64,000 bases of DNA from a virus (taxonomy: Duplodnaviria; Caudoviricetes): positions 1 to 64,000 of IMG/VR virus record IMGVR_UViG_3300010365_001248, one strand, 5' to 3'. The translations under genes were made by a program, and so were the position numbers. Position 1 is the first letter of the stretch. Each line of letters begins with the position of its first letter. A model generated the notes under the pieces. It saw only the letters and a program-made list of their open reading frames with translations, had not been told where the DNA came from and ran no database searches. This document shows, piece by piece, positions 884 through 61,054 of the stretch.

Positions 884-1618
884 TTACGAATTAGAAGTTA
901 ATAGGTTATAAGTCTGTGTAGTGTCGTCATCATAAGTAAAGGTAAAAGAAACTGGCTGTCCTATCTTATTATCTACTGTAATTATAGCATTATAAACTCC
1001 ACCAGAAGAAACTGCATTATTACTATTTTGTGTAGGAGTAGGGTCTATAGTAATACTTGCATCACTACCATCTTCCGTTGTAGTTCCATTATTATCTGTA
1101 TTAGTATTTAATACTGGTCTAATAGATCTTCCATAAAATCTTTCTGAATGATTTTCATAATAAATAGCATTTTTAAAGAAATAAAGATAACAAGCATAGA
1201 ATTGTCCATCAATTATAGTAGAAGTCCAATAATTACCCCATATTCCTTTATCTACAATATCTGTTTTTAGTTTATATCCATCTGTACCTAAAAATATAGA
1301 ATTAGTATTTTTATTACTAGTTATAGTATAACCTAAAAGGTTATTATCCCATTTCCAAGTACATTCAGACATTAATTCTAAAAATTGTTCTTTAGTTGGT
1401 ATAGAAAAAGAATGATTACTTATAATATTGCCTTTGTAATCACATAAACCTTCAGATATTAATTTCTTTTTATCTTTATAAAAAGTAATTGAATTATCTA
1501 AAGTATAAGATTCTTTTTCTTTAAATTCACCAAAAGCATAATATCCAGGTAAATTCTAATTTGCCCATAAAGTGCCAGAAGTTAAACCTAGATCTACATA
1601 TTCAAATTTATCTTCCAT
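884..1618 (-). CDS. DUF1566/Fib_succ_major-like (C-type-lectin-fold) protein, 244 aa with one in-frame TAG
   Basis: ATG at 1618 gives MEDKFEYVDLGLTSGTLWAN(TAG)NLPGYYAFGE...PTKEQFLELMSECTWKW, in frame with track ORF 884..1372. The only interruption is the TAG at 1558-1556. Family motifs YVDLGL.SGTLWA, GNYWTST and GRSIRPV are present. Confidence 0.8.
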
Positions 1619-1728
1619 ACAATTTTTAATTTAAATTAATAAATCTATGCAATATTATAATTTATTTATTATACTATTGTAGGATAATCTGCTAGATTAG
1701 ATATATGGTTATATAATAATATTATATT

Positions 1729-2685
1729 ATGCCAAATTTAAAAAATAAAGGATACGATCGTTATAATTACATGGATAAATTAAAAGCAAGACGAGATGTT
1801 ACTAATATTAATAATCCAGAACTAGAAAAGAAGGTTTTTGCAATTAAAATCATGAGTGATGAGTATAAAGCTAATAAACAAGCTTATGATTTATATTTGC
1901 AACAAGGTTATAAAAATCCTATGTCTTTTTAGGATTTTATTAAAATTAAATCTCAGAATTATACTCCTAAAATGCATTATATAGGTCCAGCTACAAAATC
2001 TATAGAATAGATAAAAGCTGAGGAAAGAAAAAGATAGCTAGCTACATAGTGTAGATATAATAATATATTACTTTATGGGACACCTAATGGAGGAAGAGAT
2101 TGGTCAGATGATTAGGTAATTTCTGCTGCAAATAGCCTATAGAATTGTGTAACATTCCCTTTAAGTTTTACAAAAGTGGCTCCTCTTACTGCAGCTGCTG
2201 ATTATTATAGAAATTTTAATGATTCTAAGTTAGGAACTGTCTATGATGCTACATCTTTAGTAGCTCATGCTATTAATCCTAAATTGGCTGTTGCAATGAA
2301 TGTTGCTCCTATTCCTTTTGCAGTTAATGATATGTATTAGAAAGGAATTTCAATAGATAATAGTTTAGATTTAGCTGGAGGAGGTTTCGCTATAGCTGAT
2401 AAAACTATAAGATCTTTATTATAGAAACGTCTTCCTAGAAAAATGCGATTTAATATGGATTATGGTATATGGGGATAGGGCGAACCTGTAGCGGCTTGGA
2501 TTGAGCGAGCTTCTGTTCCTAGGGAGAGGCGTCGTTTAATAAAAAAAGGAAGACATGGATTTGATCCAGTTTCTGAAAAGTATAGAAAATATACATATCC
2601 TATAGGAGTTTTTCAAACTGCTCCTTTTATAGTTAATTTAGGAGAAAATGCTAAAAATATTTATGATCATGCAACTAAAGAATAA
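1729..2685 (+). CDS. Hypothetical late protein, 318 aa with TAG read-through
   Basis: Frame is open from ATG 1729 to TAA 2683-2685 with 9 in-frame TAG and no internal TAA/TGA. The N-terminus is paralogous to the next gene. Confidence 0.8.
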
Positions 2686-2742
2686 AAATTGCTCATTAAA
2701 TAAAAATAATTTAGATATTTATAATTATAAAATATTAATTAC

Positions 2743-4371
2743 TTGGATAAATTAAAAGCAAGACGAGATGTTACTAATATTAATACTCCAGTACTAGATT
2801 AGAATATTTTTGCAATTCCTGAGGAATATACTCCTAAAATGCTTTATATAGGTCCAGCTGGAGAAGATCTTCCAGAAGTATTAAAAAGAAAATATGCAAA
2901 GGAGGCTTATTATTATGAGCAAGAAATTAAATATTAGAAACAGAAAGAAAAAGCACTGAAAGAATTAGAAAGATTTGCAGAAATTAGTTCTCCTAGTACA
3001 TATATTAATTTAGCTGCAGATAAATTAAGAGGGAAACCTTATGGAACTACTAGTAGTTAGTTACCTTCGGAAGTTAAAATGCTAGAAGATATATTAGTTC
3101 CTTCAGCTGGAGGTTTAGCAGTTAAAGGAGGTAAAAGCTTAATTAGAGGAAGCATAGATTTAGCAAAGAAACCAATTACTAATTATTTATAGAAAAAGGA
3201 TCCTATACTTTGGGAATTATCGGGGAAAGATTTTTCAAAAATACCTGATATTACAATTACTCCTAAAAATATAAAGTTTTTATATAGTCCTAGTTTTTCT
3301 GAAGCGTTGCCTAATGCAAATTTTAAAATGACCCCGTTAGTTAAAAGATTAATATAGGCAAAACCTACTAAAAAATTAATTAAACATTTATAGGGAGAAG
3401 AAGCAGTAAAAATGTTTAAAGATTATGGAGGAATGAAAATTCCTGAAGGCTCTATAAATGGTGAATAGCTTTTAAAATATGTTCCTGAAGTTAGAGAAAG
3501 ATACGGTTTAGTAGGTAATACAAATATTTCTGATCAAGAAATAGCTGAAGCTTTATATAAACATGTAAAAGAATTAGGAGGTAATACAGCAGCAGTAAAT
3601 GCTTAGGGAGAACCCTAGTTACTATTTAGAGGAGATACTAAAAGGTATACTTAGTTAGTTCCACACGGAATTGAGGTAAAACCTACTGACGCTTGGGCAG
3701 ATAATTTATTAGGAACATTATTTTTAGATAGACATGGAATTGGAGAATATGGAGGACCTGATAGATATTTAATTAAATATAATTAATATAGACAATTAAT
3801 AGGACCTTATAATTCAGGAATAGAAATTATGTCTCCTAGTATAGGAAATAAAAAAGGAATATATAAAAATTTACCTGAAGAAAATTTTATTAAAACTCCT
3901 AATGAATATTTTTATAAAAAAACAGATGGTTATCCTATACTTATAAATTATAGAACTTCTATATCTAAAGTTCCTAGTGAAAATTTTCCATCACCTTATA
4001 GTAATGATTTAAATGGATTTGTTGTTAGAACTCCTAAAGTATATGATATGACAGATGAATTTAATTTATATGGAGATTATGCTTCTATGCAAAAAATTAA
4101 AAACAAAGCAAATAAAGAAAAGTCAGGATTACTTATTTCTAAACCTGCTTATAAAGAAATTAATGGAGAAAAAATTCCTATGCATAGAGATGAACATGAT
4201 AAATTTACATATATAGCATTACCCGATGATAAATTAAGAACAGCAAAACATATTTTACCCTATGATTTAAGAATTCCAAGAGATTGGACTGATCCTAATA
4301 TTTATAGAGTAGCTATTCCTGTAGGAATAGGTTCTCAATTTATGAATAAAGATTATAAACTATCTTTTTAA
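2743..4371 (+). CDS. TAG-recoded protein with an ADP-ribosyltransferase-like (ART-PolyVal-like) C-terminal region; one in-frame TAA at 3784
   Basis: TTG 2743 aligns with the ATG of the upstream paralog (DKLKARRDVTNIN). There are 10 in-frame TAG up to TAA 3784-3786, and the same frame continues into track ORF 3829..4371. Motifs VNA(Q)GEP(Q)LLFRGD and a terminal DPNIYR are present. Confidence 0.6.
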
Positions 4372-4374
4372 ACT

Positions 4375-4404
4375 AAAATAGCCTCCTAAGTGGAGGCTAT
4401 TTTT
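4375..4404. terminator. Bidirectional intrinsic terminator
   Basis: AAAATAGCCTCC-TAAGT-GGAGGCTATTTT between convergent genes. Confidence 0.85.
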
Positions 4405-5242
4405 ATTTTATAGTTAATTTAATTCCAGAACCTATCATTACTGAAGGTTTCCAATTTAATTCTTTATATAATTTTGTTGTATCTGCACAAGTACATTCTA
4501 CATCTTCTTGAGGAGGTTTAGAAAATTTAATAGGAGAATTTAATTTATACCCTAATTCCATTAATCTAAGACTAATCATATTAAATAAAGTAATTACAGG
4601 TACTGAAATACCTGTACCTATATTAAATATTTCATGCCCCTCCCCCTTTCTATTGGAAAGTAATTTAATTCCTTTAACAATATCTGTAATATAAGTGAAA
4701 TCTCTTGAACAAGCATTAATTGTTATAGGTTTTTGTTCTTTTAGAAGTTTAATAAATTTTTGTATAGCCATATCTGGTCTACTATCAGGACCATATACTG
4801 TAAAAAATCTCAACCCTGTAATTTTCATATCTTTACTAAATGTATTAGCTAATACCTCATCAGATAATTTTGTACAAGCATAATAAGAAATAGGATGTAG
4901 ATCTATTGTATTTTCAGATTGATGAGTTTGACTACCATAAACTGAAGAAGATGAAGCATACATTAAGTGTTTAACTTTATATTTCTTGCACATAGTCAGA
5001 ATATTAAAGAATCCCCTAATATTTACATCCCCCTGTAGGGCTTTATTTGGCTCCCTTACACCAGGTATTGCAGCTAGGTGGATAACTAGGTCATAATTAT
5101 TCTGAAATACTTTATCTAAAAATTTTAAATCTAGAATACTACCTGTATAAGTAGCATCATGTAAATCTAAGCCATCAGCTTGTATAAATTTTATTAAATT
5201 GCTGCCAATAAAGCCAGTACTACCAGTTATTAATGTTTTCAT
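4403..5242 (-). CDS. NAD-dependent nucleotide-sugar epimerase/dehydratase (UDP-glucuronate 4-epimerase-like)
   Basis: Rossmann motif GSTGFIG, HLAAIPGVR, ASSSSVYG, catalytic YACTK, and LRFFTVYGP..RPDMA. Confidence 0.92.
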   Translation of the reverse strand: MKTLITGSTGFIGSNLIKFIQADGLDLHDATYTGSILDLKFLDKVFQNNYDLVIHLAAIPGVREPNKALQGDVNIRGFFNILTMCKKYKVKHLMYASSSSVYGSQTHQSENTIDLHPISYYACTKLSDEVLANTFSKDMKITGLRFFTVYGPDSRPDMAIQKFIKLLKEQKPITINACSRDFTYITDIVKGIKLLSNRKGEGHEIFNIGTGISVPVITLFNMISLRLMELGYKLNSPIKFSKPPQEDVECTCADTTKLYKELNWKPSVMIGSGIKLTIK

Positions 5243-5322
5243 ATATCAATGATATATTTTATTTAGGGTATAAAAAATACCATGAGGAGGTTTAATTTTA
5301 ATTATTCTCATAGTATAAATTG

Positions 5323-5400
5323 TACCCTGAAGTAGGTATTTAAATACCCTGAAATGGGTATCTAGATACTCCGAGATAGGTATTTAAATACTCCGAGATA
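5323..5400. repeat. 22-bp iteron-like tandem array (3.5 copies)
   Basis: TACCCTGAAGTAGGTATTTAAA / TACCCTGAAATGGGTATCTAGA / TACTCCGAGATAGGTATTTAAA / TACTCCGAGATA. Confidence 0.85.
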
Positions 5401-5455
5401 TTTTATAATTAACTGAATTCTAATAAATTATGTAGAATTCCTTTCTTATTTATTT

Positions 5456-5911
5456 ATGGCAGAATATACTAAAATTAAAACTCAAACAGAATCAGTAGAT
5501 CCTTTAACAGGAGAGATATTAGTAACTAATACAGAACAAGTAATTAAATGTAAATCTAAAGAAGAGTTTTGTATGATATTTGTACAAGCTTTGCCAATAG
5601 TTAGTAAATTGACTCAAGCTGAAAGTAATATATTAGTTTTTATGATGTTAAAAGCAGATTTTTATGCTGAAGGAGAAATTGGTAATAGAATTAGTTATAC
5701 AAATACTTTTAAAGCTATGTTAGTTAAAGAAACTGGGCTTTCTTTAGAAACAATAAAGAAAGCAGTTACTAAATTAATTAATAAATCTTTACTTTTAAAG
5801 GCAAAAAATGATCGACAAACTTTTTATTTAAACCCTAAATATTTCTTTCAGGGAAATTTAGGAGATAGAACTAAGGCAATTAGTATAACAACTAAATATT
5901 TATTAGAATGA
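5456..5911 (+). CDS. RepL-like winged-helix replication/maintenance protein
   Basis: N-terminal VDPLTGEI, HTH GLSLETIKKAVTKL, and C-terminal YLNPKYFFQG typical of RepL. Confidence 0.75.
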   Translation: MAEYTKIKTQTESVDPLTGEILVTNTEQVIKCKSKEEFCMIFVQALPIVSKLTQAESNILVFMMLKADFYAEGEIGNRISYTNTFKAMLVKETGLSLETIKKAVTKLINKSLLLKAKNDRQTFYLNPKYFFQGNLGDRTKAISITTKYLLE

Positions 5912-6510
5912 TTTATTTAATAGAACAAGATAACTATTATAAAATAGGATACACTTCTAATTTAGAAAGAAGATTAAAAGAATATTCTACCCATAATATT
6001 AATTTTAAATTAATAGATACTATAGAAGGAGATAAATCTTTTGAAGATTTATTACATAAAAAGTTTAAACATTTAAAATATAATAATGAATGGGTTCATA
6101 AGAATGATGAGATCCTAAAGTATTTTAAAAATACTAAAGGTATAAAAGAGATTCCTAAAGATTTTGTATATATGTTTCCTGCAGTTTTAGATAAATTAGG
6201 GGAATTAACTGAAGCTAGTTTTAAAACTTTACAATATATTGTTTTAAATGCGGGATTTGCAGGAAACCCCCCGATAGGTAATATTTTTAACTTAAATGGT
6301 TTTTATGAAGATATTATAGAAAAAACTCAATTAAAAAAATCTGCTATTACTAAAGCCTTAAAAAAATTGGTAGAAGTTACATTATTAATTAAAGATAAAA
6401 AAGCAAGAGGAATTTATTATGTAAACCCCCTTTATTTTTGGAAAGGTAAACTTAGTGATCGGATTAATTCTATTGATGTTAGTTATAAATATGTATTGAA
6501 AGAGGAATAA
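5908..6510 (+). CDS. GIY-YIG/T5orf172-like domain fused to a RepL-like domain
   Basis: N-terminus IYLI...YKIGYT.NLERRL...E..LHKKF...NEW; C-terminus YYVNPLYFWKG is paralogous to the preceding gene. Confidence 0.75.
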   Translation: MIYLIEQDNYYKIGYTSNLERRLKEYSTHNINFKLIDTIEGDKSFEDLLHKKFKHLKYNNEWVHKNDEILKYFKNTKGIKEIPKDFVYMFPAVLDKLGELTEASFKTLQYIVLNAGFAGNPPIGNIFNLNGFYEDIIEKTQLKKSAITKALKKLVEVTLLIKDKKARGIYYVNPLYFWKGKLSDRINSIDVSYKYVLKEE

Positions 6511-6591
6511 ATCAGGAAGTGAGTGTATAGGAAGTGAGTGAATAGGGAGTAGATATCCTATTTTGTGCCCCCTGGGTCACAAAATGGGAAA

Positions 6592-6618
6592 CTAGCATGT
6601 ATATATTTCTAAAACAAC
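6592..6618 (+). promoter_or_regulatory. Conserved early-gene motif copy 1 (candidate phage RNAP promoter)
   Basis: CTAGCATGTATATATTTCT-N5-AAC directly after a hairpin at ~6557-6588. Confidence 0.6.
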
Positions 6619-6816
6619 GTAGTTGTTTAACACGTATTGTGGAAAAACACTAGAATGTGAAGAATAGTAGCATTTTATGATGTGTCAGTACTAATATTTG
6701 TTTTAATAACTTGACATTGGGGAATAGCACCTAATAGCAGTCATAAAGACAGTGAACACGCAAAGCGGAGACAAGTCCACGCAACGCTTTTAATTAAATT
6801 ATTGCAGGGGCAAATT

Positions 6817-7116
6817 ATGGCAGATTTAATGTTAAAATTTTTGACAGCAGAATCTATAAGTGAACAATTGTACATCTTTTGCGGGCTTACAGGAGCGGGG
6901 GTTAGGTGCACACGTTTTTATGTGCGTAGACAAGGTTTTGAAATAACTGATAAAGCCATTACAATAGAAACGTTAAGGAATTTACCAAAAAATTATTTTA
7001 TTGAGAAATTTCTTGAGGGCTATGATAAGTGGCTTAATAAGCAAATAATGAATTTTGACCATTTAGGTTATTTACCAAGTGAAGACGCTCTGGCAGATTA
7101 TGAAGTAATTCTGTAG
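6817..7116 (+). CDS. Hypothetical early protein
   Basis: ORF track (ATG 6817 preferred). Ends in TAG; read-through would add 10 codons up to a TAA next to the terminator. Confidence 0.6.
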   Translation: MADLMLKFLTAESISEQLYIFCGLTGAGVRCTRFYVRRQGFEITDKAITIETLRNLPKNYFIEKFLEGYDKWLNKQIMNFDHLGYLPSEDALADYEVIL

Positions 7117-7144
7117 GATGACAAATTAAGTGTGAAAGTAAAAT

Positions 7145-7181
7145 AATAATCCTCAACCTTTTAGGTTGGGGATTATTTTTT
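7145..7181 (+). terminator. Intrinsic terminator
   Basis: AATAATCCTCAACC/GGTTGGGGATTATT hairpin followed by a T-run. Confidence 0.8.
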
Positions 7182-7195
7182 ATTAGTGCGTCTAC

Positions 7196-7222
7196 CTAGC
7201 AAGTATCTATTTCTGTATTAAC
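7196..7222 (+). promoter_or_regulatory. Conserved early-gene motif copy 2
   Basis: CTAGCAAGTATCTATTTCT-N5-AAC. Confidence 0.6.
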
Positions 7223-7304
7223 ATAAAGTTGTATATCAAATTAGCCAATTGATATACAATTAAGTTTAATTAATGCCCGTAAAGGACGGGTAGGCTAAAA
7301 GCAG

Positions 7305-7766
7305 ATGAAAAAAATAGTTATCATCGAACAAAAGATTAGTTCATCGAGTTTCGTTAGTTTAGTAAATTTCTCAGAACAACAAATTTGGGATGTTAGAGAG
7401 GCTATAATAAAAGCTGCCTTTTTGGCTTTTACTAAGTCTGACATATCAATTTTTCAAACTGAAAGGAATACCTTTCTTATAGCAAACAACTCTATGATGC
7501 CCGTTGAATTTTATAGATGGTCCATGCAACACTTCTTTAATGTACAAGCATTTACTAATGAAGAAGAACGAAGTTGCCAATTATCTACTCACGAAGTAAC
7601 TTCCAGAGATATTTTTATCTTTGCTGATGAATTATTAACTTTTAGAGGAGCAGATTTTGTGAGTGTTATCCGAAAAACTATAAAGGATAACATAGAAAAT
7701 ATATCAGATGTGTCACTTTTAATGAGTGTGCATTCTGCGTTCATAGAGCAGATTGATAAACTCTAA
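7305..7766 (+). CDS. Hypothetical early protein
   Basis: ORF track, 153 aa, flanked by the motif and a hairpin. Confidence 0.7.
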   Translation: MKKIVIIEQKISSSSFVSLVNFSEQQIWDVREAIIKAAFLAFTKSDISIFQTERNTFLIANNSMMPVEFYRWSMQHFFNVQAFTNEEERSCQLSTHEVTSRDIFIFADELLTFRGADFVSVIRKTIKDNIENISDVSLLMSVHSAFIEQIDKL

Positions 7767-7815
7767 AAGCTTTTAGTTTTGTGGGATAACTACCCACCAA
7801 ACTAAAGGTGGTTAA

Positions 7816-7842
7816 CTAGCAAGTATTTGTATCTATACTAAC
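7816..7842 (+). promoter_or_regulatory. Conserved early-gene motif copy 3
   Basis: CTAGCAAGTATTTGTATCT-N5-AAC after a hairpin at ~7770-7808. Confidence 0.6.
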
Positions 7843-7874
7843 GTAAAAGTATAATGTTTTAAAATTTTACGATT

Positions 7875-8432
7875 ATGGCAACAGCTAAGCGTGTGTCAAA
7901 TACCGACACCTTAAAGAAGGGTATCCAATTTTTCTCTGATGGAATGTTGTACACATTCTGCGGTTTTGATGATTCACAAGAAGACATCAAAACAAAGATT
8001 AACAATGTCGAAAAGTTCGACATTATGTTAATGTTCGAAGAACTCGATGCGGATAAAAAACCAACAGGTGTGGTTGTTAAAGTGTGCCATGGCACATTCT
8101 TAAAAACTATATCAACCGTCGTCAACGAGGACGGCGTGGCAAAAGTCAACCGTCGTAGTCAACCTCTTTATTCAGGGTCTTTGATTGACAAATACAAAAC
8201 GATGTGGCTAAAGTGTGTTACATACGGTGAGTGGAAACATGGTGCTGAACAGTTATTAAAAGATTTAATTTTTACGTGTGTGGTAACTCCACACACCGAC
8301 AGAATTAAAACGTACGATTATGAAAATAAGGTTTGGATTAAATCTTATAATGAGTCAAAAGACGGATGGACGAGTTATCAATTAGATGAACTAATTGAGA
8401 ATTCAACTATTTCAAAACCACAAAAGAATTAA
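7875..8432 (+). CDS. Hypothetical early protein
   Basis: ORF track, 185 aa; followed by a hairpin terminator at 8453-8487. Confidence 0.75.
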   Translation: MATAKRVSNTDTLKKGIQFFSDGMLYTFCGFDDSQEDIKTKINNVEKFDIMLMFEELDADKKPTGVVVKVCHGTFLKTISTVVNEDGVAKVNRRSQPLYSGSLIDKYKTMWLKCVTYGEWKHGAEQLLKDLIFTCVVTPHTDRIKTYDYENKVWIKSYNESKDGWTSYQLDELIENSTISKPQKN

Positions 8433-8537
8433 TTTCTTTGGCTCTGCAAATTTATCCTACACTACAAATGTAGTGTAGGATATTTTTATCCTAAAAATTC
8501 AAATTTGGGTAAAGCCCAATTTGAGTTTTGTGTCTAA

Positions 8538-8564
8538 CTAGCAAGTATGTATTTCTTCTAAAAC
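8538..8564 (+). promoter_or_regulatory. Conserved early-gene motif copy 4
   Basis: CTAGCAAGTATGTATTTCT-N5-AAC after a hairpin at ~8494-8529. Confidence 0.6.
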
Positions 8565-8590
8565 TTAGAACCAATTAATAAGTATTTATT

Positions 8591-9136
8591 ATGGAAAGAA
8601 ATGTAATTTCAAAGCAACTAGGTATGGAACCAGTTGCAGCTTTGCCATCAGATATGGCAAAACTAAAACCCACCATCAATGAAGAGGCAATTCTTCACGA
8701 TGGGGACGTAGTAACTATCCCAAGTGAAATTTCTTGGGGTAAAATGATGGTAAATGGTAAGGCAATTTATGCCGTACCTAGTTCTAAACTCAATGCAGCA
8801 GGTGTAGAAGAACCTTATGCATTGTTCCCTCATACCTACAGACGTCGTGTTACTGTAGGTCGTCTTGAAGGCTCAGCCTTTATAAAAGAAGAAGTCCTAA
8901 CAATCTTTAAAGGAACATTTGTTGATTTTTATAACGATTGTTATCTAAGGTCAGGAGATGTTCACGAACTAATGAGTAAGCTAAAAGGAAAGAAATTCCG
9001 TGCTACTCAAATTGGAACAGATTCACGTCCATCAATGGGATTCATTACTAAAGATGGAATTGTCAAAGCTTCTCCTTTAGCAGAACTTGCTGACCCTAGA
9101 GAAAAGAAGCTTTGGGACTTGGAACTTGTAGACTAA
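8591..9136 (+). CDS. Hypothetical early protein
   Basis: ORF track, 181 aa, AT-rich leader. Confidence 0.75.
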   Translation: MERNVISKQLGMEPVAALPSDMAKLKPTINEEAILHDGDVVTIPSEISWGKMMVNGKAIYAVPSSKLNAAGVEEPYALFPHTYRRRVTVGRLEGSAFIKEEVLTIFKGTFVDFYNDCYLRSGDVHELMSKLKGKKFRATQIGTDSRPSMGFITKDGIVKASPLAELADPREKKLWDLELVD

Positions 9137-9275
9137 TAGTCTCCCAGAAGGAAAACTGGGTTAACAAACCATTTTCTTAAACGGAAGACTGCTTGGAGTA
9201 CACTTTTAGTGTAGAGAGTCCGATTCTCTCCAGTCTACAATCAACGAATTCTACTTTTTTAAGTTAAACAATCTG

Positions 9276-9493
9276 AAAGTAACTTTTTGTGAAAAAAGTT
9301 ACTTTTTTCTATTGGAAATAAATTTATCCAATAGTAATATACACGCGTACGCACACGCACGCGTTTCTTCTTTCTTTAAGAAAGAAAGTATATATACTAC
9401 GTATATATACCAAAGAAAGAAGAAACAAGAAAGAAAGTGAACCAAATTGAAAATTAACAATGCTGAGCTTGCGAAAGCGTTCGCAAGCTCAGT
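9276..9493. other. Palindrome-dense non-coding tract, candidate replication origin or regulatory hub
   Basis: Consecutive inverted repeats: AAAGTAACTTTT..AAAAGTTACTTT, CTATTGGA..TCCAATAG, ACGCGT..ACGCGT, TTCTTTCTT/AAGAAAGAA, GTATATATAC..GTATATATAC, CTGAGCTTGCGAA..TTCGCAAGCTCAG. Confidence 0.45.
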
Positions 9494-9932
9494 AAACTAA
9501 AATAAAAAAAATATGGAAAACAGATTTTGTATTATTAACAATGAACTAGTCTATGTTCTACCTGACTACTTCATTAAAAATGATAATTTTGATGGTGTTA
9601 CAGGTAAATCTTTCAGGTATTTAAATCCATGCAATGGTCGACCAGACTGTTGTGACCAGTTCAACTTGATGCTAATTCGGTAGATATTAAAATATCTCCA
9701 ATTATTAAAAAGTGTCAAGAATAGGCTACGAAATTTTCGGAGAGTATTATGTTTACAGTCATTACTGTAAACTAAGTGAAAAACTAGGTAAACTTGGTAA
9801 GTTTGCTAACTTTTCTGTACTAAAAGTGTGGAAAGATGGTCAAACTTTTAAAGTTATTTATCTTCATGATTCTTATTGAAGACCAAGAAACTGAGTCTTA
9901 TTTTATCTTTTGGTAATAATTTGTTATTTTTA

Positions 9933-9989
9933 TGTGACAAAATGGCACAATGTGTGACAAAATGGCACAATGTGTGACAAAATGGCACA
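9933..9989. repeat. Tandem 20-bp repeat x3 of a near-palindromic site
   Basis: TGTGACAAAATGGCACAATG twice plus TGTGACAAAATGGCACA. Confidence 0.9.
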
Positions 9990-10120
9990 TAAAAATTTCA
10001 TTTTATTTAATAAATATCTTTTTATCTGCCAAAATTAAAAGAAATTGGGAGCCCTTACATACTCCCAATTTCTTTTTCATAAAAATAAATTAGTATTTTT
10101 TCAACTAAAAATCTATTAAA

Positions 10121-10357
10121 ATGTTAGTGAAACATTCTGTAATCCTAATCCCAGGATTAGGAGGAGAATGGGAATATACCCATTCTTATAAGGAACTTGA
10201 TAACAAGTTCAAACAAGTAGACCGTTCAGAGGAATGGGTCAAAAAGCAAAGAGCTGCTGCATTTAACGCAATGCATCATCACGTTACTAATGATTTTATT
10301 CAGTACGTAAAAAGAGAACAAGCAAAATATTATTTAGTCAGTATTCAAATCCTATGA
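10121..10357 (+). CDS. Hypothetical protein
   Basis: ORF track; overlaps next gene by ATGA. Confidence 0.65.
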   Translation: MLVKHSVILIPGLGGEWEYTHSYKELDNKFKQVDRSEEWVKKQRAAAFNAMHHHVTNDFIQYVKREQAKYYLVSIQIL

Positions 10358-10725
10358 AAAAACTAATCTTTTTTCTTTTATTGTTAACCAGTTGTAAACC
10401 AACTGTTGAAGAGGTTGTAAAAGAATCAGTAGATTCAATAAATATCAACGATCATATATATCTCCTAAAAGGAGAACAAAATCTCATGATCGTCACTGAT
10501 CAACTCAATGCTGAAGAGTGGCAGGATGCTAAAACGGAGATCTATTGTGATCACGTAGATGTAATCTATGGATCAACCGCTAATCCTACTCAAGTCTATC
10601 TTAACCAATTAGAAGAATTAAATAAACATTTAATTTCTTCTAAAGAAATGAGAGACTACTATAGAAATAATCCTACCCTTTTAAAACTTCCAGTAGAAAA
10701 TCTAGAAGAATACAAAGAAGAATAA
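10354..10725 (+). CDS. Putative lipoprotein
   Basis: MKKLIFFLLLLTSC: signal peptide with a lipobox-like Cys. Confidence 0.7.
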   Translation: MKKLIFFLLLLTSCKPTVEEVVKESVDSININDHIYLLKGEQNLMIVTDQLNAEEWQDAKTEIYCDHVDVIYGSTANPTQVYLNQLEELNKHLISSKEMRDYYRNNPTLLKLPVENLEEYKEE

Positions 10726-10743
10726 AAAAATAGTATAAAATAT

Positions 10744-10774
10744 TTTGACTTATTCAAAATATTTTATACTTTTG
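10744..10774 (+). promoter_or_regulatory. Bacteroidetes sigmaA-type promoter for the tRNA cluster
   Basis: TTTG (10744) - 19 nt - TACTTTTG matches the -33 TTTG / -7 TAnnTTTG consensus, 6 nt before tRNA-Gln. Confidence 0.7.
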
Positions 10775-10780
10775 TACCAT

Positions 10781-10851
10781 TGAAGTTTCGTATAACGGTA
10801 GTACACCAGTTTTTGGATCTGGTAGTAGGAGTTCGATTCTCCTAACTTCAA
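10781..10851 (+). tRNA. tRNA-Gln(TTG)
   Basis: Acceptor TGAAGTT/AACTTCA, anticodon arm CCAGT-TTTTGGA-TCTGG, T-loop TTCGATT. Confidence 0.85.
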
Positions 10852-10880
10852 CTAAAATGTATTAATTTATCATTTCGTGC

Positions 10881-10910
10881 TTGATTTGTGATTAAACTAT
10901 TATATTTGCA
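10881..10910 (+). promoter_or_regulatory. Second Bacteroidetes-type promoter
   Basis: TATATTTGCA (-7 element TAnnTTTG) at 10901-10910 with upstream TTG. Confidence 0.6.
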
Positions 10911-11150
10911 GACGAAAACTGTGTAAATACACAAAAATTGTATCTTTTAGTTTGTTCAGAACGACAATGGTTAATATAGAAAGGTTAGTTGAGCAATGTT
11001 GGACTAAAACACCAAATGTAGGAAATGAGTCGGGGAAACCGAATGATACCTATATGCATATTTATATGCTGAGAGGGACTCCAAGGTGTAGGTAACGACT
11101 ACAAGACACTCTCTATAAAAAACCGTGAAACTCGGTAGATGCTCGTAAAT
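10911..11150 (+). ncRNA. Candidate structured ncRNA of unknown class
   Basis: ORF-free stretch behind its own promoter with nested stems: GAGCA/TGCTC, TAGG/CCTA, TCGG-GGAAA-CCGA, GCATA/TATGC, GAGAG/CTCTC, TGTAG/CTACA, ACCG/CGGT. Confidence 0.4.
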
Positions 11151-11168
11151 TAATACTTTTTTATTCAC

Positions 11169-11253
11169 GCCTCAGTGATGAAATTGGCAGTCATGCAAGA
11201 TTTAAGCTCTTGTGGTCAGTACGACCGTATGGGTTCGAGTCCCATCTGAGGTA
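11169..11253 (+). tRNA. tRNA-Leu(TAA)
   Basis: GCCTCAG/CTGAGGT acceptor, CAAGA-TTTAAGC-TCTTG, long variable arm, TTCGAGT. Confidence 0.92.
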
Positions 11254-11338
11254 GAAATGCTTGATTAAAACCTCCACGTGGTGCATTTCGGTTAACACTA
11301 ATATTAATCACAAATTATATAAAGATATGAAACAAAAT

Positions 11339-11411
11339 GCCTCTGTAGTTCAATTGGTAGAACGATTGATTTGTAATCAATAGGCTGTCGGTTCAAGTCC
11401 GGCCAGAGGCT
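11339..11411 (+). tRNA. tRNA-Thr(TGT)
   Basis: GCCTCTG/CAGAGGC acceptor, ATTGA-TTTGTAA-TCAAT, TTCAAGT. Confidence 0.93.
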
Positions 11412-11451
11412 CTTGATTTAGATCTTTGACAAGTCTGATAATAAAATATAT

Positions 11452-11526
11452 AGCGGGGTGGACTGGAGATGGTTCCAGCTCGGCCTCATAAGCCGAACGA
11501 CACAGGTTCGAACCCTGTCCCCGCAA
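11452..11526 (+). tRNA. tRNA-Met(CAT), initiator-like
   Basis: AGCGGGG/CCCCGCA with a 1:72 mismatch, TCGGC-CTCATAA-GCCGA, TTCGAAC. Confidence 0.88.
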
Positions 11527-11532
11527 CAATAT

Positions 11533-11566
11533 GGATCTGTAGCTCAGTTGGTTGAGAGCAACGGAA
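11533..11566 (+). pseudogene. Truncated tRNA 5' half
   Basis: GGATCTG-TA-GCTC-AGTTGGTTGA-GAGC-A-ACGGA stops before an anticodon; no 3' half. Confidence 0.6.
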
Positions 11567-11568
11567 TT

Positions 11569-11640
11569 CTTTCTATCGTCTAATGGTTAGGACTCATGCC
11601 TTATACGCATGCAATCTAGGTTCAAATCCTAGTAGAAAGA
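11569..11640 (+). tRNA. tRNA-Ile(TAT)
   Basis: CTTTCTA/TAGAAAG acceptor, CATGC-CTTATAC-GCATG (anticodon TAT), CTAGG-TTCAAAT-CCTAG, discriminator A. Confidence 0.8.
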
Positions 11641-11692
11641 CTAATTTTTTTATAAGAAAGACCTGTTGGTCGCAGGGTCCACATACATATCT

Positions 11693-11759
11693 GCTGGGTC
11701 CGTCTAGTGGTTTGGACGCCACCCTTTCACGGTGGAGGGTTCGAATCCCGTACTCAGTA
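11693..11759 (+). tRNA. tRNA-Glu(TTC), degenerate (variable loop and part of T-stem deleted)
   Basis: GCTGGGT/ACTCAGT acceptor, CCACC-CTTTCAC-GGTGG, then only A-GGG-TTCGAAT-CCCGT. Confidence 0.65.
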
Positions 11760-11781
11760 CAATAATGTACAAATACATTCT

Positions 11782-11871
11782 GGTGGTTTACTCAAGTGGT
11801 TAAGAGGGCAGTTTGCTAAACTGTTAGGCCGTTAATACGGTACGCAGGTTCGAACCCTGCAGCCACCGCCA
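11782..11871 (+). tRNA. tRNA-Ser(GCT)
   Basis: GGTGGTT/AGCCACC acceptor, GCAGT-TTGCTAA-ACTGT, long variable arm, encoded CCA. Confidence 0.93.
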
Positions 11872-11874
11872 GTC

Positions 11875-12096
11875 GGTCAGGCATATTCCTTAATGTGTCC
11901 CATACTGCTCTGGTCACAGTACGTAGCAGCTCCGTTTACCTGTCCCGTCTATTGTAATACTTCTCTATCACGTTAAGATGAAGTTGGTCAGGCATATTCC
12001 TTAATGTGTCCCATACTGCTCTGGTCACAGTACGTAGCAGCTCCGTTTACCTGTCCCGTCTATTGTAATACTTCTCTATCACGTTAAGATGAAGTT
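11875..12096. repeat. Perfect 111-bp tandem duplication
   Basis: 11875-11985 equals 11986-12096 (GGTCAGGCATATTCC...GATGAAGTT). Confidence 0.95.
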
Positions 12097-12262
12097 GAGT
12101 TTCAGCTGTAGAGTTGCAGACCCTACAGTGAAGTTTGATGGTAAACTGTTCCTTGTATATTGACTGGTATATACATGGAAGCAAACTTTGCCGGGTTTAC
12201 ACCTTGTCCTCACTCCGCCGCACACGGAAAATGACATTGCGTCCAGGGAAAAAGGTGATCAT

Positions 12263-12333
12263 GATCCCATAGCTCAACGGCAGAGCTGCAGGCTTTTAAT
12301 CTGTAGATGATGGTTCGATTCCATCTGGGATCA
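12263..12333 (+). tRNA. tRNA-Lys(TTT)
   Basis: GATCCCA/TGGGATC acceptor, GCAGG-CTTTTAA-TCTGT, TTCGATT. Confidence 0.9.
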
Positions 12334-12469
12334 CAATTTCACTGTAAAAAAAATACAAAGTTTACTGTGATAGTAGATGCTTTTTTTATTTTGAAAATGC
12401 TATTTGATAGGAGGTTGTTGTGAAACAATCTCCTATTTTTGTATTAGAAATTTAAAAAAAATTATATAT

Positions 12470-13369
12470 ATGGAATTACAGTCATTTTTTGGCACTTCAG
12501 GCTTATCAAGCACAAGTGCTAATAGCATAGCTAACTATGCTAAAGAAGCCTACAGAGAAATAGATTCTTTCTTTGAGAATCTACAACTCTATAATGTAGA
12601 AACTCAATTAATTGGGACATCTGATCGTCTCATAACTAAAAGAGGTCTTTCAGATCTATCTTCAATTAAAAACAAAATTGAGTTTTTGTATGAAGCTAAA
12701 GCTTTAATTACTTGGCTTCATAAAGCAATTAAAGCCAAAGAAGATTTGGAAATAGAAGCTAAGTGCATTCCTCCTTATAAAAATCCAGTCCCTCAAAGTA
12801 CTTTGGTTCACCCAAAAGAACCTAATACACTAGTTGAGGCTGATTTTTGGAAAAAACAGCCAATAAAAACCAGATATAGTTATCTATATCTTGAAACAAA
12901 ATGTGCTGTAATTGGTGGATTGATCCATGAAAATGGAGCAATTTCTAAAGCTAGAAAGAAACTTTTGTCGATAATATCTAATCCTTCAGAAATAAAAGGA
13001 GAAGGAAGAGATACAATTATCACATATTATACTCCATCTGTGAGTGTACAAGAAGTAGACAAGCTTTTCTTTGAGTTGCAAGGATTGCACAGATCTGCTC
13101 AAGCAGAACTAAATTCTTTGAGAAGTCAAGCTAAAGCTTGGTGTGATAAGACAAATATTGAAAATTTAGCAGAATATAAAACAGCTTTGACTGATTATTA
13201 TGCTAAAAAACGAGCTTTAGACAAGGAAAAAGAGGAAGCTGAAAAGCTTTACTATTCTTCTAAAAAAGAAGAATCATTAAATTCTCTAAAAGAAATAAAT
13301 TCTTTAAAAATTGTCATTCCAGACAATTTGAGAGAAATTTATGAAGCAGTTAATTCACTAACAAAATAA
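12470..13369 (+). CDS. Hypothetical coiled-coil phage protein
   Basis: Track ORF 12404..13369; ATG 12470 (MELQSFFG) preferred. Confidence 0.8.
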   Translation: MELQSFFGTSGLSSTSANSIANYAKEAYREIDSFFENLQLYNVETQLIGTSDRLITKRGLSDLSSIKNKIEFLYEAKALITWLHKAIKAKEDLEIEAKCIPPYKNPVPQSTLVHPKEPNTLVEADFWKKQPIKTRYSYLYLETKCAVIGGLIHENGAISKARKKLLSIISNPSEIKGEGRDTIITYYTPSVSVQEVDKLFFELQGLHRSAQAELNSLRSQAKAWCDKTNIENLAEYKTALTDYYAKKRALDKEKEEAEKLYYSSKKEESLNSLKEINSLKIVIPDNLREIYEAVNSLTK

Positions 13370-59961: not shown

Positions 59962-60213
59962 ATGAAAAATATAACCAATTTATCTAATACTTATAATAAT
60001 GTAATTAAATTAGCAGATGATCTTTCAAAATTTATTAAAGATTATCAACCACAAAATGCTAATGATTACTTTGATAAAGACTTAATGGTGACTCAACTTA
60101 ATATATTACACAGTCTTGCTTGTACTTTAGCTATGCGTATTAATATTAATAGTGTACAAGAAGAACCTGAAGAGGCACCTATTATGGATAATGAGCCTTC
60201 TGTAAATGATTAA
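59962..60213 (+). CDS. crAss001_48-like small protein
   Basis: KL..DL.KFI...LM..QL.I...L...LAMRI pattern. Confidence 0.55.
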   Translation: MKNITNLSNTYNNVIKLADDLSKFIKDYQPQNANDYFDKDLMVTQLNILHSLACTLAMRININSVQEEPEEAPIMDNEPSVND

Positions 60214-61054
60214 AAAAGTAATTTTTACAGACCATTCTAATGATATACTAGTAAAATATTTTCATGATATTAATAAATATCCTATTCTATCAAATGATGA
60301 AATTAATCAACTTATTCCGTCGGCACAAAAAGGTAATGAACAATCAATTGATTTAATATGTAAATCAGTACTCCGTTTTGTTGTAACTATTGCAAAACAG
60401 TTACAATATAAAGGAGTACCTTTAATGGATTTAATATCAGAAGGTAATTATGGTATTTTAACTGCTATTAAAAAATATAAAGTAGAAAAAGAAATACCTT
60501 TTATTTACTATGCTATTCATTGGATTAAACAAAAGATGTATATTGCTATTTATGGAACTAATAAATCTATACGTATTACTTTTGTACAAAATATGCGTTT
60601 AAATAAGATTATTAAAGTTTCAGCTAAATTTATGCAAGAACATCAACGTGAACCTTCTGCTGAAGAATTAGAAGAATTAACTGGATTTCCTTTAAAAGAA
60701 ATTAAGATTTTATTACCTTATTTAGATAAAGTCAATTCTTTAGATACTATAATTGAATCTAATGATTCTGAAACAACTTTAGGAGAATTATTACCAGGAG
60801 ATTATATTGAACAAGATACTGATTTACATAAAGAATATGTAAATAAAAAACTTTATAAAGTTTTGAATAAATTAACTTTAAGAGAAAAAGCTGTTATTTG
60901 TTTAATATATGGAATACAATGTCAACAAATGTATTTACCTGATATTGCTAAATTATTTGGAGTTTGTGAAGAACGCATTAGGCAAATTAAAGAAAAAGCT
61001 TTATACAGATTGAAAAAATATAAACGTTATTTTATCGAAATAAATTATGCGTAA
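60206..61054 (+). CDS. Sigma-70 family RNA polymerase sigma factor
   Basis: LRFVVTIAK, DLISEGNYG, YAIHWIKQ, REPSAEEL and ERIRQIKEKAL motifs. Confidence 0.93.
   Translation: MIKKVIFTDHSNDILVKYFHDINKYPILSNDEINQLIPSAQKGNEQSIDLICKSVLRFVVTIAKQLQYKGVPLMDLISEGNYGILTAIKKYKVEKEIPFIYYAIHWIKQKMYIAIYGTNKSIRITFVQNMRLNKIIKVSAKFMQEHQREPSAEELEELTGFPLKEIKILLPYLDKVNSLDTIIESNDSETTLGELLPGDYIEQDTDLHKEYVNKKLYKVLNKLTLREKAVICLIYGIQCQQMYLPDIAKLFGVCEERIRQIKEKALYRLKKYKRYFIEINYA

What the first reader, a model, noticed from the sequence alone, without database searches (positions are those of the whole stretch)
6557..8564. Hairpin plus CTAGCAWGTATNTRTWTCT-N5-AAC cassette before four consecutive early genes
The motif recurs at 6592, 7196, 7816 and 8538. 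Each copy lies just downstream of a strong hairpin and upstream of a single gene, and I did not notice it elsewhere in the window. It does not match the host TAnnTTTG promoter. Known: crAss-like phages inject a virion RNA polymerase for early transcription. Inference: these are its promoters, possibly hairpin-dependent as in N4, and they could also act as recombination points for gene cassettes.
Basis: partly seen in the sequence, partly recalled or inferred. Interest (0 to 1): 0.7.

Follow-up and report, generated by a model that had tools for sequence, protein, structure and literature searches.

The report
Hairpin-plus-promoter cassettes, crAss-like phage
Four unrelated small genes at the head of the early gene block of an uncultured 164-kb crAss-like phage each sit behind a strong hairpin and one conserved, non-host-like 33-base signal. 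The signal is most likely a phage-specific promoter, and related strains gain, lose or swap genes at it, but sequence alone cannot show which RNA polymerase reads it.

Summary
The motif occurs exactly four times (6592, 7196, 7816, 8538, + strand) and nowhere else in the 163,912-bp genome: the four sites score about 41 bits on a weight matrix and the next best site scores 15. The extended consensus is A(A/C)CTAGCA(A/T)GTATnT(A/G)T(A/T)TCT-N5-AACnTA. Each copy follows a significant hairpin and precedes one gene. The four genes have no family match and are unrelated to each other.

The signal is under selection. An 89%-identical relative keeps 66 nt around copy 4 unchanged and carries a compensatory change in the hairpin stem. 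It also marks the joints of gene-cassette turnover. One related strain lacks cassettes 1 and 2, with the break at the 5' edge of the motif. Another keeps the hairpin-plus-motif spacers but not the gene bodies.

The signal matches neither the Bacteroidetes consensus nor a sigma-70 promoter. The hairpins vary in sequence, length and distance to the motif, so an N4-type hairpin promoter is not supported.

The best reading is terminator plus phage-specific promoter cassettes, like T4-type PeSLs. It could instead be host core polymerase with the phage's own RpoD/RpoS-like sigma factor (60206-61054). This scan has already noted similar cassettes in at least 37 other crAss-like genomes.

The parts
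6556..6589 (+). Hairpin 1 (about 14 pairs, no U-tract). It abuts motif 1 and follows the stop of the GIY-YIG/RepL-like gene 5908-6510.
   Evidence: Fold dG -20.2 kcal/mol, z -3.2.
6590..6622 (+). Motif copy 1 (33-nt extended element; core CTAGCATGTATATATTTCT at 6592).
   Evidence: The break of the strain deletion is reported at 6590.
6817..7116 (+). Cassette gene 1, 99 aa (104 aa from TTG at 6802). No family match. Ends in TAG. Its leader is about 200 nt.
   Evidence: Absent from strain X4.
7137..7184 (+). Hairpin 2, a classical terminator shape (core 7145-7177 followed by a T-run).
   Evidence: dG -22.9, z -5.8.
7194..7226 (+). Motif copy 2.
7305..7766 (+). Cassette gene 2, 153 aa, no family match.
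   Evidence: Absent from X4. The gene body is not covered in X7, where a joint 7312->7756 is reported.
7769..7809 (+). Hairpin 3 (15 pairs with one mismatch, no U-tract).
   Evidence: dG -19.4, z -3.4.
7814..7846 (+). Motif copy 3.
   Evidence: The other end of the X4 deletion is at 7814, and X7 contigs diverge 10-17 nt after this copy.
7875..8432 (+). Cassette gene 3, 185 aa. Found only in this phage lineage, with relatives 57-86% identical.
   Evidence: The AlphaFold2 model has pLDDT 64 and gave no credible fold match.
8453..8482 (+). Hairpin 4a, a classical terminator with a T-run.
8494..8529 (+). Hairpin 4b, the one next to motif 4. Its stem is kept by an A:T to G:C double change in relative L050.
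8536..8568 (+). Motif copy 4. It lies inside a 66-nt stretch (8522-8587) that is identical in an 89%-identical relative.
8591..9136 (+). Cassette gene 4, 181 aa. Found only in this phage lineage, with relatives 61-88% identical.
   Evidence: The model has pLDDT 57.
60206..61054 (+). Phage-encoded sigma-70-family factor (regions 2, 3 and 4; RpoD/RpoS-like; 282 aa). It is a candidate alternative reader of the motif.

Best explanation
The region is an array of four self-contained expression cassettes at the head of the rightward gene block, which is not TAG-recoded and is presumably early. Each unit has four parts:
- a stable stem-loop that ends or insulates transcription from the left
- a 33-nt conserved signal that acts as a phage-specific promoter, with initiation probably at or just after the conserved AAC
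- a leader of 29 to about 200 nt
- one lineage-restricted gene with no family match

The signal is not the host sigma-A consensus, so I infer that a phage-supplied specificity reads it. My leading candidate is the injected crAss-type virion RNA polymerase (about 0.35). Next is host core polymerase with the phage's own sigma factor (about 0.2). Last is host holoenzyme helped by a bound phage factor (about 0.1).

Because the same signal heads every unit, it also serves as the crossover point at which related strains delete, insert or replace cassettes. This is the behaviour of PeSL cassettes in T4-type phages.

Shown here:
- the motif, its uniqueness in the genome and its conservation
- the hairpins
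- that the four genes are unrelated
- strain differences whose breaks lie at the motif

Inferred: promoter function, early timing, and the identity of the polymerase.

Sub-probabilities: promoter of any kind about 0.65; recombination joint about 0.8.
For: (1) There are four exact copies against 0.05 expected, and no other site in the 164-kb genome scores above 15 of 41 bits.

(2) All copies lie on the coding strand in four consecutive spacers. Each is upstream of a different gene, the genes are unrelated to each other (blastp) and none has a family match. The shared element is therefore not a by-product of gene duplication.

(3) The conservation has the shape of a functional site. The same columns vary in all copies, and the flanks are unrelated.

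(4) The element is under purifying selection. In the 89%-identical contig L050, 66 nt (8522-8587) are identical; by my arithmetic the chance of that at 11% divergence is about 5e-4. Hairpin 4b keeps its pairing through an A:T to G:C double change.

(5) In run X7 the four spacers are covered at depth 13-19 while the gene bodies have depth 0-0.7. Contigs diverge 10-17 nt after motif 3.

(6) In run X4 an 11.6-kb contig, about 97% identical upstream, joins 6590 directly to 7814. These are the first bases of motif copies 1 and 3, so cassettes 1 and 2 are removed.

(7) The host-type consensus TTTG-N19-21-TAnnTTTG occurs only before the tRNA cluster (10744) and before the suppressor tRNA (157295). 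The motif has no conserved -35/-10 pair either.

(8) The array starts about 1 kb after the strand switch, just after the iterons and the RepL-like genes. This is where crAss-like phages place their early genes.

(9) A precedent exists for a virion two-barrel polymerase with its own conserved promoter: P23-45. A precedent exists for promoter/stem-loop cassettes that drive modular shuffling: PeSLs.
Against: - No transcript data exist for this phage. No RNA run holds the region, so promoter activity and timing are untested.
- In phi14:2, transcripts made by the virion polymerase gp66 had no detectable common upstream motif, and gp66 preferred single-stranded DNA.
- The phage encodes a complete sigma factor that could read the motif.
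- The TATTTCT part is a weak look-alike of the host -7 box TAnnTTTG (3-5 of 6 specified positions, read from the sequence). Use by the host holoenzyme is therefore not excluded.
- The motif is not found in five relatives with 56-57% terminase identity.
- I could not confirm the virion polymerase gene by homology.
- With only four copies, recent spread of one spacer by recombination could account for part of the similarity.
Confidence: 0.55

Rival explanations
1. The motif is the promoter of host core polymerase carrying the phage-encoded RpoD/RpoS-like sigma factor (60206-61054). The four cassettes would then be middle or late accessory genes, not immediate-early ones.
For: A full sigma factor with regions 2, 3 and 4 is encoded in the same gene block. 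The motif differs from the host consensus, as a new sigma specificity would require. Protein-coding genes of this phage almost never carry the host consensus.
Against: A phage sigma factor is expected to serve many promoters, above all those of the late block, yet the motif and its halves occur nowhere else. The conserved bases form one continuous 20-nt block, not two hexamers about 17 nt apart. Gene 1 ends in TAG, which would be read through once the suppressor tRNA is active.
Confidence: 0.2
2. The motif is not a promoter but a protein-binding or recombination site. It could be an operator for one of the adjacent RepL-like winged-helix proteins. It could also be a target of the GIY-YIG-like (T5orf172/MUG113) protein 5908-6510 that mobilises cassettes.
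For: Two DNA-binding genes, one fused to a GIY-YIG-like nuclease domain, lie directly upstream. Strain differences have their breaks at the motif. Conservation over 20 continuous bases suits a protein-binding site.
Against: The RepL-like genes already have their own iterons at 5323-5399. The motif is asymmetric and always co-directional with the gene behind it. No integrase-type recombinase turned up among the genes I scanned near the array. Each gene would still need a promoter, and no other shared signal exists in the spacers.
Confidence: 0.12
3. The hairpin plus motif acts at the RNA level inside one long transcript, as a processing site, a stabilising 5'/3' end or an antitermination signal, rather than at the DNA level.
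For: Two of the hairpins (1 and 3) lack the U-tract of an intrinsic terminator. A compensatory change shows selection on the pairing of hairpin 4b.
Against: No Rfam family matches. The motif has no internal pairing, and its distance to the hairpin (0-17 nt) and to the start codon (about 25-200 nt) varies. Hairpins 2 and 4a are classical terminators, which argues for separate transcripts.
Confidence: 0.08
4. These are N4-type promoters, in which the extruded DNA hairpin itself is the recognition element of the virion polymerase.
For: A hairpin lies close to every copy. There are only a handful of sites, as with the three N4 early promoters.
Against: N4 hairpins have 5-7 pairs with conserved bases, centred at -11 from the start. 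Here the stems have 12-16 pairs, share no sequence, and their centres lie 20-35 nt from the motif. Similar hairpins end other genes that have no motif. No T7-like polymerase domain was found, although the control for that search was silent.
Confidence: 0.03

Closest known systems
PeSL (promoter-early stem-loop) cassettes of T4-type phages RB49 and phi1 (Arbiol et al. 2010, PMC2839356)
   Same: Both are small intergenic modules that combine a promoter with a stem-loop terminator. Both sit upstream of genes without known homologues in a plastic, early-expressed region. In both, recombination between copies causes deletions, insertions and replacements between close strains.
   Different: PeSL promoters match the host sigma-70 consensus, and there are about 50 per genome. 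Here the signal matches no host consensus, has only four copies, and the stem-loop always lies upstream of the signal. Mini-circles were not examined.
Pre-early promoters of the virion two-barrel RNA polymerase gp96 of Thermus phage P23-45 (bioRxiv 10.1101/2022.12.01.518664)
   Same: A conserved phage-specific motif lies upstream of the first genes expressed and is absent from host promoters. It occurs in a phage that carries a virion polymerase of the same broad class as the crAss-like enzymes.
   Different: In P23-45 the link between motif and polymerase rests on start-site mapping and ChIP-seq. Here nothing is mapped. I did not compare the motif sequences.
Early transcription of crAss-like phage phi14:2 by virion polymerase gp66 (bioRxiv 10.1101/2020.03.07.982082)
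   Same: Same phage order. In both, small early genes lie at one end of the replication arm, and a giant virion polymerase is presumed to read them.
   Different: phi14:2 early transcripts showed no common upstream motif, and gp66 preferred single-stranded templates. Here a sharply conserved 33-nt signal is present.
Coliphage N4 early promoters P1-P3 (PMC4496689)
   Same: Both have few sites, lie near the start of the early region, and have a hairpin nearby.
   Different: The N4 hairpin is short, conserved and at a fixed distance, and it is read by a T7-like polymerase. None of these features holds here.

Membership tests
T4-type PeSL regulatory cassettes | Intergenic composite of a promoter motif and a stable stem-loop, upstream of genes without known homologues | tested here: met
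   Four spacers each hold a hairpin plus the motif, ahead of a gene with no family match.
T4-type PeSL regulatory cassettes | The promoter part matches the host primary-sigma consensus | tested here: not met
   There is no conserved -35/-10 pair and no TTTG/TAnnTTTG. The host consensus occurs only before the tRNA genes.
T4-type PeSL regulatory cassettes | Recombination between copies produces indels and replacements between close strains | tested here: met
   X4 joins 6590 to 7814, which are both motif starts. X7 keeps the spacers but not the gene bodies.
T4-type PeSL regulatory cassettes | Promoter and terminator activity shown with reporters; mini-circle formation | not testable with these tools
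   This needs experiments.
N4-type hairpin promoters | Short hairpin (5-7 pairs) with conserved stem and loop bases | tested here: not met
   The stems have 12-16 pairs and share no sequence.
N4-type hairpin promoters | Fixed distance from hairpin centre to the start site (-11) | tested here: not met
   The distance from hairpin centre to the motif is 20, 35, 27 and 26 nt (and coordinates).
N4-type hairpin promoters | T7-like single-subunit virion polymerase | tested here: inconclusive
   PF00940 gave no match in the genome, but the control genomes were silent too.
Promoter of the crAss-type virion RNA polymerase | The genome encodes the giant two-barrel polymerase with a DxDxD motif (I or V at position 4) | tested here: inconclusive
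   A 3734-aa TAG-recoded ORF contains DLDID. It lies beside helicase- and PD-(D/E)XK-bearing giant ORFs. No sequence match to solved structures, Pfam or annotated phages was found.
Promoter of the crAss-type virion RNA polymerase | Rifampicin-resistant transcript starts at the sites immediately after infection | not testable with these tools
   No RNA run holds the region. The phage is uncultured.
Bacteroidetes sigma-A promoter | TTTG at -33 and TAnnTTTG at -7, 19-21 nt apart | tested here: not met
   No copy matches. TATTTCT fits 3-5 of 6 specified -7 positions, and a -33 TTTG is present in copy 4 only.
Intrinsic (factor-independent) terminators | G+C-containing stem-loop followed by a U-run | tested here: inconclusive
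   Hairpins 2 and 4a fit. Hairpins 1 and 3 have no U-run. Hairpin 4b has a partial one.

The most novel reading that the evidence does not exclude
The 33-nt element is the recognition sequence of the crAss-type injected two-barrel RNA polymerase in this (Zeta-like) lineage. That would make it a sequence-defined early promoter for an enzyme whose promoter is unknown in the one studied phage. The polymerase would serve just four immediate-early, strain-variable genes, with the promoter copies doubling as the exchange points of the cassettes.
Probability: 0.3. Interest if true: 0.75.

Novelty: new variant of a known kind. Interest (0 to 1): 0.55.

Why it matters
How crAss-like phages start transcription is an open point. 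The injected polymerase is known structurally, but no promoter has been defined for it, and the papers I could search on crAss001 and the Zeta group name none. A short, sharply conserved, non-host signal in front of the first four genes gives a concrete template for in vitro transcription and for start-site searches in metatranscriptomes. The strain comparison also shows how these abundant gut and wastewater phages turn over their first-expressed genes: by exchange at shared regulatory signals, as T4-type phages do with PeSLs. These genes are the likely host-takeover or anti-defence set, which is my inference. The phage-encoded sigma factor is a competing reader and must be tested alongside. 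This scan has already flagged similar cassettes in many other crAss-like genomes, so this case is one more member of that pattern, not a first sighting.

Tried and rejected
**Motif searches outside the genome**
- IMG/VR and metagenome pattern scans gave only single hits in unrelated DNA. The exception was L050, a 2.5-kb contig from a close relative.
- The genome-contig scan gave 91 hits, close to the number I expect by chance. Many of them are one alphaproteobacterial repeat that shares the 19-mer, which I treat as coincidence.
- Five relatives with 56-57% terminase identity lack the motif.
- In relative G001 the early region shares almost no genes with this phage. It shows only a weak two-copy repeat at the analogous place.

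**Fetching variant arrays**
- The search for related loci with gene 4 and with the RepL alignment found nothing close.

**RNA evidence**
- No RNA holder is listed. X24 is labelled RNA-Seq, but the tool rates it as probably DNA, and it covers only parts of gene 4 and the tRNAs.
- The X7 joints 6637->7196 and 7312->7756 have unknown letters between the two sides, and the first has only 28 nt on its shorter side. I did not build on them.

**Virion polymerase**
- Neither the 1680-aa nor the 3734-aa ORF matched PHROGs, Pfam polymerase families, PDB sequences or annotated phage genes.
I sent it to no other remote tool.

**Function of the cassette genes**
- They have no PHROG or Pfam hits.
- Their homologues occur only in the same lineage.
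- The AlphaFold2 models are of low confidence, pLDDT 57 and 64.
- Foldseek against the PDB gave nothing at E <= 0.001. A scatter of OB-fold proteins appeared at E 0.04-0.5 with TM below 0.25, which is not credible.
- A profile comparison of gene 3 with gene 4 gave probability 5%.

**RNA families**
- Rfam found nothing in 1300-10800 beyond chance-level hits.
Full report
**The observation**

No further site appears in the window even with three mismatches allowed, and 0.05 matches are expected by chance.

The window is the first 64 kb of a 163,912-bp IMG/VR virus record rated 94% complete. A weight matrix built from the four sites scores them at 41-42 bits. The best other site on either strand of the whole genome scores 15 bits. 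Halves of the motif do not recur in any meaningful place.

The flanks are unrelated.

Each copy follows a hairpin that folds far better than shuffled sequence:
- 6556-6589
- 7137-7184
- 7769-7809
- 8453-8482 plus 8494-8529

Each copy precedes a single ORF of 99, 153, 185 or 181 codons.

**The genome**

- G+C content is about 27%.
- A rightward block of small genes runs from about 5.4 kb to about 70 kb.
- The leftward block, 74-164 kb, opens into long reading frames only if TAG is read through. Total ORF length rises from 37,834 to 54,475 codons, and the longest frame from 1,627 to 3,734 codons.
- A tRNA with anticodon CTA lies at about 157.2 kb.
- The large terminase is 22-27% identical to terminases of Crassvirales and 43-47% identical to unannotated gut phage records.
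- Rfam finds a group I intron at 63112-63343, and intron-core-like words recur elsewhere.
I did not run a phylogeny.
- The leftward block holds consecutive giant ORFs with an SF1 helicase domain, a PD-(D/E)XK nuclease domain, and a 3,734-codon ORF that contains DLDID. That motif has the form, with I at the fourth position, reported for crAss-like virion polymerases.
The premise that the phage injects a polymerase is therefore plausible but not verified here.

**Position of the array**

The strand switch lies near 5.3 kb. There, 22-nt iterons (5323-5399) precede two RepL-like genes, and the second of these is fused to a T5orf172/MUG113 (GIY-YIG-like) domain. The four cassettes follow directly. 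Behind them come a few small genes and a cluster of seven tRNA genes. The cassettes are thus among the first genes of the block that uses the standard code. Gene 1 even ends in TAG.

**Evidence that the element is functional**

The four genes have no PHROG or Pfam match and are unrelated to one another, so the shared upstream element is not a remnant of gene duplication.

The activated-sludge contig L050 is about 89% identical to 8260-10165. Within it, 66 nt from 8522 to 8587 are identical. This stretch covers the 3' arm of hairpin 4b, motif 4 and the leader. At 11% divergence the chance of that is about 5e-4 by my arithmetic. Hairpin 4b keeps its pairing through an A:T to G:C double change.

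**Strain comparison**

Logan contigs of four public runs were laid on 3000-13000.
- Run X3 (wastewater) holds near-identical pieces that cover parts of all four cassettes.
- Run X4 (bovine gut) has an 11.6-kb contig that is about 97% identical over 4345-6590 and then continues at 7814 with no letters in between. 6590 and 7814 are the first bases of motif copies 1 and 3, so this strain lacks cassettes 1 and 2.
- Run X7 (gut) covers the four spacers at depth 13-19. The bins inside genes 1, 2 and 3 have depth 0, 0 and 0.7. Two contigs leave the reference 10 and 17 nt after motif 3 and run into other sequence.

The hairpin-plus-motif spacers are therefore better kept than the genes between them, and gene content changes at the motifs.

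Homologues of genes 3 and 4 exist only in this lineage, at 57-88% identity. The RepL fusion gene next door reaches 93%.

**What kind of signal it is**

- The simple sigma-70 scan finds no conserved -35/-10 pair in the four copies.
- The Bacteroidetes consensus TTTG-N19-21-TAnnTTTG occurs once in the rightward block, 37 nt before the first tRNA. In the leftward block it occurs once in an intergenic spacer, just upstream of the suppressor tRNA gene. The -7 box alone is not enriched in spacers.
- The motif contains TATTTCT, which fits only 3-5 of the 6 specified positions of the -7 box. If it were read as such a box, the conserved AAC would fall where starts are expected. This is a weak hint, not a match.
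- The conserved bases form one continuous block of about 20 nt plus the AAC. This is more like the promoter of a phage polymerase or a protein-binding site than a two-hexamer sigma promoter.
- The hairpins are not part of a fixed structure with the motif. Their sequences, lengths (12-16 pairs) and loops (3-7 nt) differ, and so does the distance from hairpin centre to motif (20-35 nt).
- Two hairpins (2 and 4a) are classical terminators, and similar hairpins end other genes that have no motif.
- N4 promoters have a 5-7-pair hairpin with conserved bases centred at -11. That model does not fit.

**Who reads it**

Three readers are possible.

1. The injected polymerase. In favour are the position, the non-host sequence and the small number of sites, plus the precedent of P23-45, whose virion two-barrel polymerase uses its own conserved motif. 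Against it is phi14:2, where early transcripts had no common upstream motif and the enzyme preferred single-stranded DNA.

2. Host core polymerase with the phage's own sigma factor. A 282-aa protein at 60206-61054 has regions 2, 3 and 4 and scores best against RpoS and RpoD models. Against it, a sigma factor should serve many promoters, above all late ones, and the motif occurs nowhere else.

3. Host holoenzyme, perhaps helped by a bound factor.

No RNA run holds the region, so the choice cannot be made from data at hand.

**Comparison with what is known**

The closest described system is the PeSL of T4-type phages. These are promoter plus stem-loop modules upstream of genes without known homologues in plastic regions, and recombination between copies causes the indels and replacements that distinguish close strains. 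The layout and the strain behaviour are the same here. The promoter part is not, because PeSLs carry the host sigma-70 consensus.

I found no paper that defines an early promoter for a crAss-like phage.

Earlier notes of this scan report hairpin-plus-motif early cassettes in at least 37 other crAss-like genomes, each with its own motif. Those notes are unchecked, and I use them only as leads.

**Verdict**

- The signal is real, selected and non-host-like.
- It marks cassette boundaries and recombination joints.
- That it is a promoter is likely.
- That the virion polymerase reads it is the leading guess but remains open.
- N4-like hairpin dependence is unlikely.

Noticed in passing
window 60206-61054 (+): The phage encodes a full-length sigma-70-family factor (regions 2, 3 and 4) that scores best against RpoS/RpoD models. 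Its target promoters are unknown, and no shared late-promoter motif was looked for in depth.
   Followed up: partly
window 5323-5399: Three and a half copies of a 22-nt unit with palindromic junctions (GGTATTTAAATACC) lie 55 nt upstream of two RepL-like genes (5456-5911 and 5908-6510). The second gene carries an N-terminal T5orf172/MUG113 GIY-YIG-like domain.
   Followed up: partly
window 6514-6543: Two tandem copies of a 15-nt unit (AGGAAGTGAGTGTAT, then a copy with one change), followed by a weaker third, lie between the stop of the RepL fusion gene and hairpin 1. This may be a binding site.
   Followed up: no
window 9933-9992: Three tandem 20-nt units (TGTGACAAAATGGCACAATG) lie in the spacer before gene 10121-10357. 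The layout resembles an operator.
   Followed up: no
window 10744-10774 and genome 157295 (- strand): The only intergenic full matches to the Bacteroidetes consensus TTTG-N19-21-TAnnTTTG lie in front of tRNA genes: the seven-tRNA cluster and the CTA suppressor tRNA at about 157152-157241. Protein-coding genes lack the consensus.
   Followed up: partly
window 63112-63343; also 33175, 33676, 40501, 63886 and genome 128903 (-): There is an Rfam group I intron hit at 63112-63343 (79.5 bits). The word GATATAGTCTGA recurs at the other five sites and looks to me like group I intron core sequence. This fits the intron-dense Zeta crAss-like description.
   Followed up: partly
window 32853, 37272, 39595, 48642; genome 150975 and 150248 (-): A repeated unit with the invariant word GATAAAAAGC is set between short inverted repeats and followed by GATAACAAAACTG-like sequence. 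It may be another intron or structured-RNA element.
   Followed up: no
L050:938-1473 (relative of window about 9181-9186): The 89%-identical activated-sludge relative carries a 535-nt insertion with no ORF but rich in hairpins, between cassette gene 4 and the downstream spacer.
   Followed up: no
loci L079-L157 (Brucella/Ochrobactrum, Phenylobacterium, Caulobacter and other Alphaproteobacteria): A multi-copy chromosomal repeat, CACTAGCAAGTATATGTTTCTAGTG inside a longer inverted repeat, shares the 19-mer core of the phage motif. The total number of database hits is about what chance predicts, so I take the match as coincidence. I did not identify the repeat itself.
   Followed up: partly
window 7229-7260 and 7276-7292: The leader of cassette gene 2 holds a perfect 12-pair stem-loop and a second short G+C-rich hairpin between the motif and the start codon.
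   Followed up: no
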